64,000 nt of DNA, from NCBI RefSeq assembly GCF_000026545.1, contig NC_011601.1. One strand, given 5' to 3'. Of the stretch, positions 39,626-39,796 are shown in pieces (position 1 is the stretch's first letter; each line of letters starts with the position of its first letter). The notes below the pieces were generated by a model, which did no database searches, was not told where the DNA came from, and saw only the letters and a list, made by a program, of their open reading frames with translations. The position numbers and the translations under genes were made by a program. This DNA is from Escherichia coli O127:H6 str. E2348/69. GTDB taxonomy: Bacteria; Pseudomonadota; Gammaproteobacteria; Enterobacterales; Enterobacteriaceae.

Positions 39626-39639
39626 TTGAGCGAAGTCAA
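39626..39639. promoter_or_regulatory. FNR box of fnrS promoter
   Basis: TTGAG-CGAA-GTCAA centred about 42 bp upstream of the fnrS 5' end (class II spacing). Confidence 0.6.
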
Positions 39640-39674
39640 TAAACTCTCTACCCATTCAGGGCAATATCTCTCTT

Positions 39675-39796
39675 GCAGGTGAATGCAACGTCAAGCGATG
39701 GGCGTTGCGCTCCATATTGTCTTACTTCCTTTTTTGAATTACTGCATAGCACAATTGATTCGTACGACGCCGACTTTGATGAGTCGGCTTTTTTTT
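39675..39796 (+). ncRNA. fnrS: FnrS small regulatory RNA
   Basis: Matches recalled FnrS sequence from GCAGGTGAATGCAACG... to the terminator hairpin gccgactttgatgagtcggc plus T8. Confidence 0.85.

What the first reader, a model, noticed from the sequence alone, without database searches (positions are those of the whole stretch)
39626..39796. fnrS sRNA with a well-positioned class II FNR box
The sRNA is recognisable by sequence, and the half-sites TTGAG and GTCAA are centred about 42 bp upstream of its 5' end. This confirms the region is the intact anaerobic sRNA locus and anchors coordinates for the neighbouring small ORF.
Basis: established knowledge. Interest (0 to 1): 0.25.

Follow-up and report, generated by a model that had tools for sequence, protein, structure and literature searches.

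The report
Known anaerobic small RNA FnrS

Summary
The finding is correct and already known. Rfam's FnrS model (RF01796) matches window 39675-39792 (+) full length at 134.8 bits (cut-off 60, E 4e-24). The window is E. coli E2348/69. The 122-nt RNA (39675-39796) is identical at every base to the curated K-12 gene fnrS (b4699). It lies between zntB and ynaL-dbpA, as in K-12.

The box TTGAGcgaaGTCAA is at 39626-39639. Its centre is at -42.5 from the RNA's 5' end. Published FNR ChIP-seq work on K-12 reports the same position and treats it as a class II site.

The box motif alone is no rarer than chance in 64 kb (2 found, 1.54 expected). Its position and conservation make the case. In 120 other Enterobacterales species, chosen only by a motif inside the RNA, an FNR-like box is centred at -42.5 in 117 of them. 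A conserved -10 element (cAnnnT at -13 to -8) and an A-tract at -64 to -61 go with it, and the sequence between these elements varies.

The ORF inside the RNA is not conserved, so the RNA is non-coding. The neighbouring small ORF is the validated protein YnaL (39854-40027).

Interest is low. The only new details are minor features of the promoter.

The parts
39611..39614 (+). Conserved A-tract at -64 to -61, upstream of the FNR box. It may be a docking site for the RNA polymerase alpha C-terminal domain (inference).
   Evidence: Information content is 0.85-1.6 bits in 119 unique promoters, while the neighbouring columns are below 0.5 bits. Its function was not tested.
39626..39639 (+). FNR box TTGAGcgaaGTCAA, centred at 39632.5, which is -42.5
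   Evidence: Sequence. Exact TTGA-N6-TCAA match. At -42.5 in 118 of 121 sequences. Information content 1.1-1.9 bits. FNR ChIP-seq site at -42.5 in K-12 (PMC3688515).
39639..39644 (+). Position of the -35 hexamer given a 17-bp spacer (ATAAAC, 2 of 6 matches to TTGACA). It overlaps the FNR box, as expected for an activator-dependent class II promoter.
   Evidence: Read. The sigma-70 consensus scan found no stand-alone promoter here.
39662..39667 (+). -10 hexamer CAATAT (-13 to -8)
   Evidence: A at -12 and T at -8 are nearly invariant (117 and 116 of 119), as are G-14 and C-13. The assignment as the -10 hexamer is inferred.
39675..39796 (+). fnrS, a 122-nt sRNA gene; +1 is G at 39675
   Evidence: RF01796 at 134.8 bits. 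122/122 identical to K-12 b4699.
39675..39720 (+). Stem-loop 1 (nt 1-46). The 5' end (G4, G5) is one of the published target-pairing regions.
   Evidence: Rfam consensus structure. The core of the stem is reproduced by the minimum-energy fold. The pairs hold in 97 unique homologues, with two non-standard positions and little variation. The fnrS-III mutant G4C, G5U is cited in PMC8595263.
39721..39735 (+). Single-stranded C/U-rich linker CUUACUUCCUUUUUU (nt 47-61), the main seed for pairing with mRNA ribosome-binding sites
   Evidence: Unpaired in the Rfam structure and largely unpaired in the minimum-energy fold. The pairing mutants fnrS-I (U57-59) and fnrS-II (C47-U49) are cited in PMC8595263.
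39736..39761 (+). Stem-loop 2 (nt 62-87)
39769..39796 (+). Intrinsic terminator: 8-bp stem (5 G-C pairs), 4-nt loop and 8 U. By established knowledge this is also the Hfq-binding 3' end.
   Evidence: Terminator scan. Compensatory changes at pairs 99:110 (41 sequences), 100:109 (25) and 101:108 (28).
39854..40027 (+). Neighbour, not part of the sRNA: ynaL, a 57-aa proline-rich small protein that starts 57 nt after the fnrS 3' end and is followed by dbpA (40057-41430)
   Evidence: ORF list. RefSeq and K-12 annotation. Identical sequence detected as a protein in PMC6001520.
30974..31726 (-). fnr, the gene for the activator itself, about 8 kb upstream in the same window, intact
   Evidence: RefSeq annotation WP_000611911.1. 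Start codon and N-terminus read.

Best explanation
This is the chromosomal fnrS locus of E. coli (strain E2348/69). When oxygen is absent, the [4Fe-4S] FNR dimer binds the box TTGAGcgaaGTCAA. The box overlaps the weak -35 region (class II geometry), so bound FNR recruits sigma-70 RNA polymerase. Transcription starts at G 39675 and ends at the intrinsic terminator, giving a 122-nt Hfq-dependent RNA. The RNA's single-stranded C/U-rich linker and its 5' end pair with the translation-initiation regions of mRNAs for functions not needed without oxygen (for example sodA, sodB, iscR, marA, cydDC, gpmA). This blocks their translation and lowers their level. Shown here: the identity of the RNA, its position, its structure, and the conservation of the promoter elements. 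Taken from the literature on K-12: FNR occupancy, anaerobic induction, Hfq dependence and the targets. Inferred: that the identical sequence behaves the same way in this strain.
For: RF01796 full-length hit at 134.8 bits against a cut-off of 60. The window is 100% identical to E2348/69. The RNA is 122/122 identical to curated K-12 fnrS; the four differences in the aligned 291 bp (39600, 39620-39621, 39844) all lie outside the box, the -10 and the RNA. Terminator found; the fold reproduces the three hairpins. FNR ChIP-seq peak with the site at -42.5 in K-12 (PMC3688515). FnrS is under FNR control, is expressed in anaerobiosis, pairs with iscR mRNA with help from Hfq, and iscR-lacZ rises 13-fold in an fnrS deletion grown anaerobically (PMC11572966). 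Pairing mutants and shared targets are given in PMC8595263. 120 other species were picked only by a motif in nt 4-42 of the RNA. Twelve distant ones were all confirmed as RF01796 at 80.7-131.3 bits. The box is at -42.5 in 117 of the 120. The footprint covers only the box, the -10 and an A-tract. 91% of structure cells are paired, and the terminator shows compensatory changes. The box keeps its position where the gene is inverted relative to zntB.
Against: Nothing contradicts it. Caveats follow. No expression data for this strain were available here. The 5' end in other species is inferred by homology. The RNA is so conserved that stems 1 and 2 show almost no covariation. The folding energy is only modestly better than that of shuffled sequences (z = -1.67). 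The box motif alone is at chance frequency in the window. The two original 2010 papers could not be read, so details from them are second-hand.
Confidence: 0.97

Rival explanations
1. FnrS is not an independent transcription unit. It would instead be the processed 3' end of the zntB mRNA, and the upstream box would be incidental.
For: No terminator-like hairpin lies between the zntB stop (39579) and fnrS +1. zntB sits directly upstream on the same strand in about 110 of 120 species, with its stop roughly 80-140 nt before +1.
Against: The box and the -10 element are conserved at fixed spacing from the 5' end, while the spacers vary. In Rahnella and Rouxiella (L053, L067, L069, L092, L111, L118) fnrS is convergent with zntB and still keeps the box at -42.5. 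FNR ChIP-seq shows a peak at this promoter. Read-through from zntB may add transcripts but cannot be the main origin.
Confidence: 0.02
2. The palindrome is a CRP site, or a site for another CRP/FNR-family protein, rather than an FNR site.
For: CRP and FNR sites share the same 5-4-5 architecture. Secondary literature says regulators other than FNR (ArcA) also affect FnrS levels (PMC10993149).
Against: The half-sites are TTGA and TCAA, not the GTGA and TCAC that CRP needs (established knowledge of the two consensus sequences). T at -48 is kept in 118 of 119 sequences and no variant moves toward GTGA. ChIP-seq with FNR found this site.
Confidence: 0.01
3. The transcript is a dual-function RNA that also encodes a small protein from the AUG at nt 9-11 (ORF 39683-39826, 47 aa).
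For: The ORF exists, and the AUG is present in nearly all homologues.
Against: ORF length varies widely across 120 species, from 3 to more than 84 codons. The frame changes after the U-tract (...LLPFLNYCIAQ against ...LLPFFELLHST). The AUG is buried in stem 1, and no Shine-Dalgarno sequence can precede nt 9.
Confidence: 0.01

Closest known systems
FnrS (fnrS, b4699) of E. coli K-12 MG1655; Rfam RF01796
   Same: Identical 122-nt sequence, identical FNR box, -10 region and terminator, and the same neighbours zntB, ynaL and dbpA.
   Different: Four single-base differences in the flanks only (39600, 39620-39621, 39844). The RefSeq record of this strain leaves the gene unannotated.
FnrS orthologues across Enterobacterales (Salmonella, Citrobacter, Enterobacter, Yersinia, Serratia, Pantoea/Erwinia, Dickeya/Pectobacterium, Edwardsiella, Photorhabdus, Arsenophonus)
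   Same: Same RNA family (80.7-131.3 bits). FNR-like box at -42.5 in 117 of 120. Usually downstream of zntB.
   Different: Pantoea, Erwinia and related genera use CTGAT-N4-ATCAA; a few others use TTGCG. ynaL-dbpA is missing between fnrS and ttcA in most genera outside the Escherichia/Citrobacter/Enterobacter group. The gene is inverted relative to zntB in Rahnella and Rouxiella.
Class II FNR-activated promoters such as dmsA, narG, nirB (-41.5) and ydhY (-42.5)
   Same: Single FNR site overlapping a poor -35 hexamer. The distance from box centre to the start of the -10 hexamer is 29.5 bp, as in the canonical arrangement. ydhY and fnrS are both listed at -42.5 (PMC3688515).
   Different: The product is a regulatory RNA, not an mRNA. 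The inner base of each half-site departs from the consensus (TTGAG and GTCAA instead of TTGAT and ATCAA).
RyhB (Fur-controlled sRNA)
   Same: Same logic: a global transcription factor gains an indirect, repressive arm through one Hfq-dependent sRNA. It shares the targets sodA, sodB, marA and the isc operon (PMC8595263).
   Different: Unrelated sequence. It is induced by iron starvation through loss of repression, not by activation.

Membership tests
FnrS sRNA (Rfam RF01796) | Covariance-model score at or above the curated gathering score, over the whole model | tested here: met
   134.8 bits against 60, model positions 1-119 of 119, E 4.4e-24
FnrS sRNA (Rfam RF01796) | Sequence identity to the experimentally characterised K-12 gene | tested here: met
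   122/122 identical to b4699
FnrS sRNA (Rfam RF01796) | Genomic position downstream of zntB (ydaN) and before dbpA | tested here: met
   zntB 38596-39579, fnrS 39675-39796, ynaL 39854-40027, dbpA 40057-41430. zntB linkage holds in nearly all of 120 species.
FnrS sRNA (Rfam RF01796) | Three hairpins with a single-stranded C/U-rich linker and an intrinsic terminator with a U-tail | tested here: met
   91% of pair cells are standard pairs in 97 unique homologues, with compensatory changes in the terminator.
FnrS sRNA (Rfam RF01796) | Non-coding | tested here: met
   The internal ORF is not conserved in length or frame.
FnrS sRNA (Rfam RF01796) | Anaerobic, FNR-dependent accumulation; Hfq binding; repression of target mRNAs by base pairing | not testable with these tools
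   Reported for K-12 (PMC11572966; PMC8595263; PMC3688515). Assumed for this strain because the sequence is identical.
Class II FNR-dependent promoter | Match to the FNR consensus TTGAT-N4-ATCAA | tested here: met
   TTGAGcgaaGTCAA: 8 of 10 consensus bases, with the core TTGA-N6-TCAA exact
Class II FNR-dependent promoter | Site centred near -41.5, overlapping the -35 region | tested here: met
   Centre at -42.5 from the annotated +1, and 29.5 bp from the first base of the conserved -10 hexamer. Within the -41.5 +/- 4 class used by PMC3688515, which lists fnrS at -42.5.
Class II FNR-dependent promoter | Weak intrinsic promoter (poor -35 hexamer), so that an activator is needed | tested here: met
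   ATAAAC is 2 of 6 matches at the -35 position. The consensus promoter scan finds nothing in 39400-40100.
Class II FNR-dependent promoter | FNR occupancy in vivo and dependence of transcription on fnr | not testable with these tools
   ChIP-seq peak in K-12 over the identical sequence (PMC3688515). The fnr gene is intact in this window.
CRP-dependent promoter (considered) | Half-sites TGTGA and TCACA | tested here: not met
   The half-sites are TTTGA and TCAAT. T at -48 is kept in 118 of 119 sequences.

The most novel reading that the evidence does not exclude
The fnrS promoter may carry a second conserved determinant that has not, to my knowledge, been described. It is an A-tract at -64 to -61 (window 39611-39614), about 20 bp upstream of the FNR-box centre, together with the invariant G-14 and C-13. 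The A-tract could act as an UP-like docking site for the polymerase alpha C-terminal domain, or as the site of a co-regulator. It might help explain the strong induction, or the reported influence of regulators other than FNR. A related possibility is that the fnrS terminator also ends zntB transcripts, because no other terminator is visible, so that zntB mRNAs would carry FnrS in their 3' ends.
Probability: 0.3. Interest if true: 0.2.

Novelty: already known. Interest (0 to 1): 0.05.

Why it matters
It matters little as a discovery. FnrS has been characterised since 2010, and this copy is identical to the K-12 gene. The result has three practical uses. It fixes coordinates in the window: fnrS 39675-39796, ynaL 39854-40027. 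It shows that RefSeq records of E. coli, apart from K-12, leave this sRNA unannotated. It also provides a clean comparative footprint of a class II FNR promoter across about 120 species, covering the box, the -10 element and an upstream A-tract.

Tried and rejected
- **Original papers:** Durand & Storz 2010 and Boysen et al. 2010 are not held in the library. The FNR-site position was taken from Myers et al. 2013 instead.
- **Promoter scan:** The sigma-70 consensus scan found no promoter in 39400-40100. This is expected for an activator-dependent promoter and does not count against it.
- **Chance test on the motif alone:** 2 found against 1.54 expected, so it is uninformative. The argument was moved to position and conservation.
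- **Folding energy:** It is only weakly better than shuffled sequences (z = -1.67), and covariation in stems 1 and 2 is almost nil because the RNA barely varies. Support for the structure rests on the Rfam model and the terminator covariation.
- **Dual-function (coding) reading:** Rejected.
- **zntB 3'UTR origin:** Rejected as the main origin.
- **Matches in phage and plasmid collections:** These are artefacts. One is a Rac-like prophage record with about 14 kb of host flank. The others are chromosome-sized, or appear to be chromosome fragments filed as plasmids.
- **ArcA site:** An ArcA-type direct repeat was looked for by eye upstream of the box. None was convincing, and no tool-based test was done.
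- **Literature search for 'YnaL':** The first search returned chemistry papers. A refined search found the right paper.

Full report
**Observation**

The sequence at 39600-39800 contains TTGAG (39626-39630), a four-base spacer CGAA, and GTCAA (39635-39639). The palindrome is therefore centred at 39632.5.

A search of the whole window against Rfam 15 at gathering thresholds gave three hits:
- frnS/FnrS (RF01796) at 39675-39792 (+), 134.8 bits against a gathering score of 60, E 4.4e-24, covering model positions 1-119 of 119.
- MicC at 46751-46871 (+).
- McaS at 32802-32897 (-).

**Source and identity**

A 701-bp stretch around the locus is 100% identical to the chromosome of E. coli E2348/69 (O127:H6). 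It is present in 5393 of 5426 complete E. coli genomes.

The curated K-12 record annotates fnrS (b4699) as a 122-nt ncRNA at 1409129-1409250, between zntB and ynaL-dbpA. Aligned to the window, that gene corresponds to 39675-39796 and is identical at all 122 positions. The four differences in the 291 aligned bases are at 39600, 39620-39621 and 39844. They lie outside the box, the -10 region and the RNA.

The finding's coordinates, 39626-39796, run exactly from the first base of the box to the last U of the terminator tail.

**Geometry of the promoter**

With +1 at 39675 the box is centred at -42.5. Myers et al. 2013 (PMC3688515, Table 1) list an FNR ChIP-seq peak upstream of fnrS with the best site at -42.5. 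They class sites within 4 nt of -41.5 as class II.

The simple sigma-70 scan finds no stand-alone promoter in 39400-40100. The hexamer at the -35 position, ATAAAC, matches TTGACA at only 2 of 6 bases. This is what an activator-dependent promoter looks like.

The comparative data below point to CAATAT (39662-39667, -13 to -8) as the -10 hexamer. Its first base is 29.5 bp from the box centre. A textbook promoter with a -41.5 site and a -12 to -7 hexamer has the same distance. The extra base in '-42.5' therefore comes from the distance between the -10 hexamer and the start, not from displacement of FNR relative to the polymerase (inference).

**Is the box more than chance?**

Taken alone it is not. 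TTGA-N6-TCAA occurs twice in the window against 1.54 expected from shuffles. Position and conservation carry the argument.

I scanned one genome per species for a 27-specified-base motif that lies entirely inside the RNA (nt 4-42). Twelve of the most distant were confirmed as full-length RF01796 at 80.7-131.3 bits. These were Arsenophonus, Photorhabdus, Edwardsiella, Yersinia, Rahnella, Rouxiella, Pantoea, Erwinia, Dickeya, Serratia, Hafnia and Salmonella.

The upstream sequence played no part in the selection. Results for the 121 sequences, including the window:
- The best FNR-like box is centred at -42.5 from the homologous 5' end in 118.
- It is at -41.5 in two Yersinia and at -43.5 in one Pantoea.
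- 91 boxes are exact TTGA-N6-TCAA.
- 30 have one mismatch, mainly CTGAT-N4-ATCAA in Pantoea, Erwinia and related genera, and TTGCG in a few others.

Column-wise information content over 119 unique promoters shows a sharp footprint:
- 1.1-1.9 bits at the two half-sites.
- Below 0.5 bits from -32 to -18.
- Near-invariant G-14, C-13, A-12 and T-8.
- An A-tract at -64 to -61 (0.85-1.6 bits) with variable flanks.

**The RNA**

The minimum-energy fold (-32.8 kcal/mol, z = -1.67) reproduces the three hairpins of the Rfam consensus. The C/U-rich stretch at nt 47-61 is unpaired in the Rfam consensus and largely so in that fold. Thermodynamics alone is weak evidence, since 14 of 200 shuffles fold as well.

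The terminator scan finds an 8-bp stem with 5 G-C pairs and a 4-nt loop at 39769-39788, followed by eight T.

I projected the Rfam structure onto a MAFFT alignment of 97 unique homologues. 91% of cells are standard pairs. Clear compensatory changes occur in the terminator stem: 99:110 A-U/G-C in 41 sequences, 100:109 C-G/U-A in 25, and 101:108 in 28. Stems 1 and 2 hardly vary at all, which says nothing for or against them.

The ORF that starts at the AUG of nt 9-11 (39683-39826) has lengths scattered from 3 to more than 84 codons across species. It changes frame after the U-tract. The RNA is not coding.

**Context**

- zntB (38596-39579) ends 96 nt before +1, with no terminator-like hairpin in between.
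- ynaL (39854-40027, 57 aa) starts 57 nt after the RNA. dbpA (40057-41430) follows, then ttcA on the other strand.
- The YnaL sequence is identical to the protein detected by epitope tagging in VanOrsdel et al. 2018, which lists it as lying between fnrS and dbpA (PMC6001520).
- zntB lies directly upstream on the same strand in about 110 of the 120 species. ynaL-dbpA is present only in the Escherichia/Citrobacter/Enterobacter group; elsewhere ttcA follows fnrS directly.
- In Rahnella and Rouxiella, fnrS is convergent with zntB and still keeps its box at -42.5. This argues that fnrS is an independent transcription unit and not a processed zntB 3' UTR.
- The fnr gene itself is intact about 8 kb upstream (30974-31726, minus strand).

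**Mechanism**

The steps of the mechanism have different bases.
- Shown here: the identity of the RNA, its structure, its terminator, the promoter elements and their conservation.
- From the literature on K-12:
  - FNR occupies this promoter (PMC3688515).
  - FnrS is under FNR control and appears on the shift to anaerobiosis.
  - It pairs with the iscR 5' UTR, helped by Hfq, and an fnrS deletion raises an iscR-lacZ fusion 13-fold in anaerobic growth (PMC11572966).
  - Point mutants in nt 4-5, 47-49 and 57-59 define its pairing regions, and it shares the targets sodA, sodB and marA with RyhB (PMC8595263).
  - ArcA is also reported to influence its level (PMC10993149).
- Inferred: the identical locus of E2348/69 behaves the same way.

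**Comparison and novelty**

This is the known FnrS gene with its known class II FNR promoter, so it is already known. Three points may go slightly beyond what I could find in the accessible literature: the quantified cross-species footprint, the conserved A-tract at -64 to -61, and the absence of a separate zntB terminator. All three are minor.

**Verdict**

Interest is 0.05.

Noticed in passing
window 31746-31759 (box) and 30974-31726, minus strand (fnr): The only other exact TTGA-N6-TCAA in the window (TTGATATTTGTCAA) lies 20-33 nt upstream of the start codon of fnr itself. That is the position expected for the FNR autoregulation site. Both exact boxes in the 64 kb therefore sit next to FNR-related genes, although 1.54 are expected by chance.
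   Followed up: partly
window 39611-39614 (-64 to -61 of fnrS): An A-tract AAAA(C) is conserved in 119 unique Enterobacterales fnrS promoters while its flanks vary. It lies about 20 bp upstream of the FNR-box centre, where the polymerase alpha C-terminal domain sits at class II promoters. G-14 and C-13 are also invariant. Function unknown.
   Followed up: partly
window 39580-39674: No terminator-like hairpin lies between the zntB stop codon and fnrS +1, so zntB transcripts may run into fnrS and end at its terminator. In Rahnella and Rouxiella (L053, L067, L069, L092, L111, L118) zntB is convergent and ends about 30 nt beyond the fnrS terminator.
   Followed up: partly
window 39854-40027 and 40057-41430; loci L004-L123: ynaL-dbpA lies between fnrS and ttcA only in Escherichia, Citrobacter, Enterobacter and close genera. 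In most other Enterobacterales ttcA follows fnrS directly. A G/A difference from K-12 at 39844 falls in the ynaL Shine-Dalgarno region (GGAGGG here, AGAGGG in K-12).
   Followed up: partly
window 39675-39796; RefSeq NZ_CP059840.2: The RefSeq (PGAP) annotation of this strain, and of every other E. coli genome listed, carries no feature for fnrS. Only the curated K-12 record annotates it.
   Followed up: yes
L124 (ON470595.1, 'Escherichia phage vB_EcoS-683R6') 11385-11584: A phage-collection record contains fnrS. It is a Rac-like prophage (integrase next to ttcA) deposited with about 14 kb of host flank (abgT to ttcA), not a phage-borne sRNA. Matches in the plasmid collection are records of Mb size, or 119-386 kb non-mobilizable records that are probably chromosome fragments.
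   Followed up: yes
window 37197-38341, minus strand (dgcM): The diguanylate cyclase gene dgcM is annotated as a frameshifted pseudogene in this strain, whereas it is intact in K-12. The long minus-strand ORF seen here ends at 38401.
   Followed up: no
window about 32450-36360: The abgABT-abgR region of K-12 is reduced to fragments: a partial hypothetical gene and a LysR-family pseudogene. An AraC-family regulator, a HlyD-family protein and a frameshifted MFS efflux gene lie between McaS and smrA.
   Followed up: no
window 32802-32897 (-) and 46751-46871 (+): Two further known sRNAs score above their Rfam thresholds: McaS/IsrA (112.8 bits) and MicC (121.4 bits). MicC lies next to ompN, as in K-12.
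   Followed up: no
window about 42546-42904: Fragments of a tyrosine integrase and of a DUF1627 gene lie next to ttcA. They are the remnant of a Rac-type prophage at its usual attachment site.
   Followed up: no
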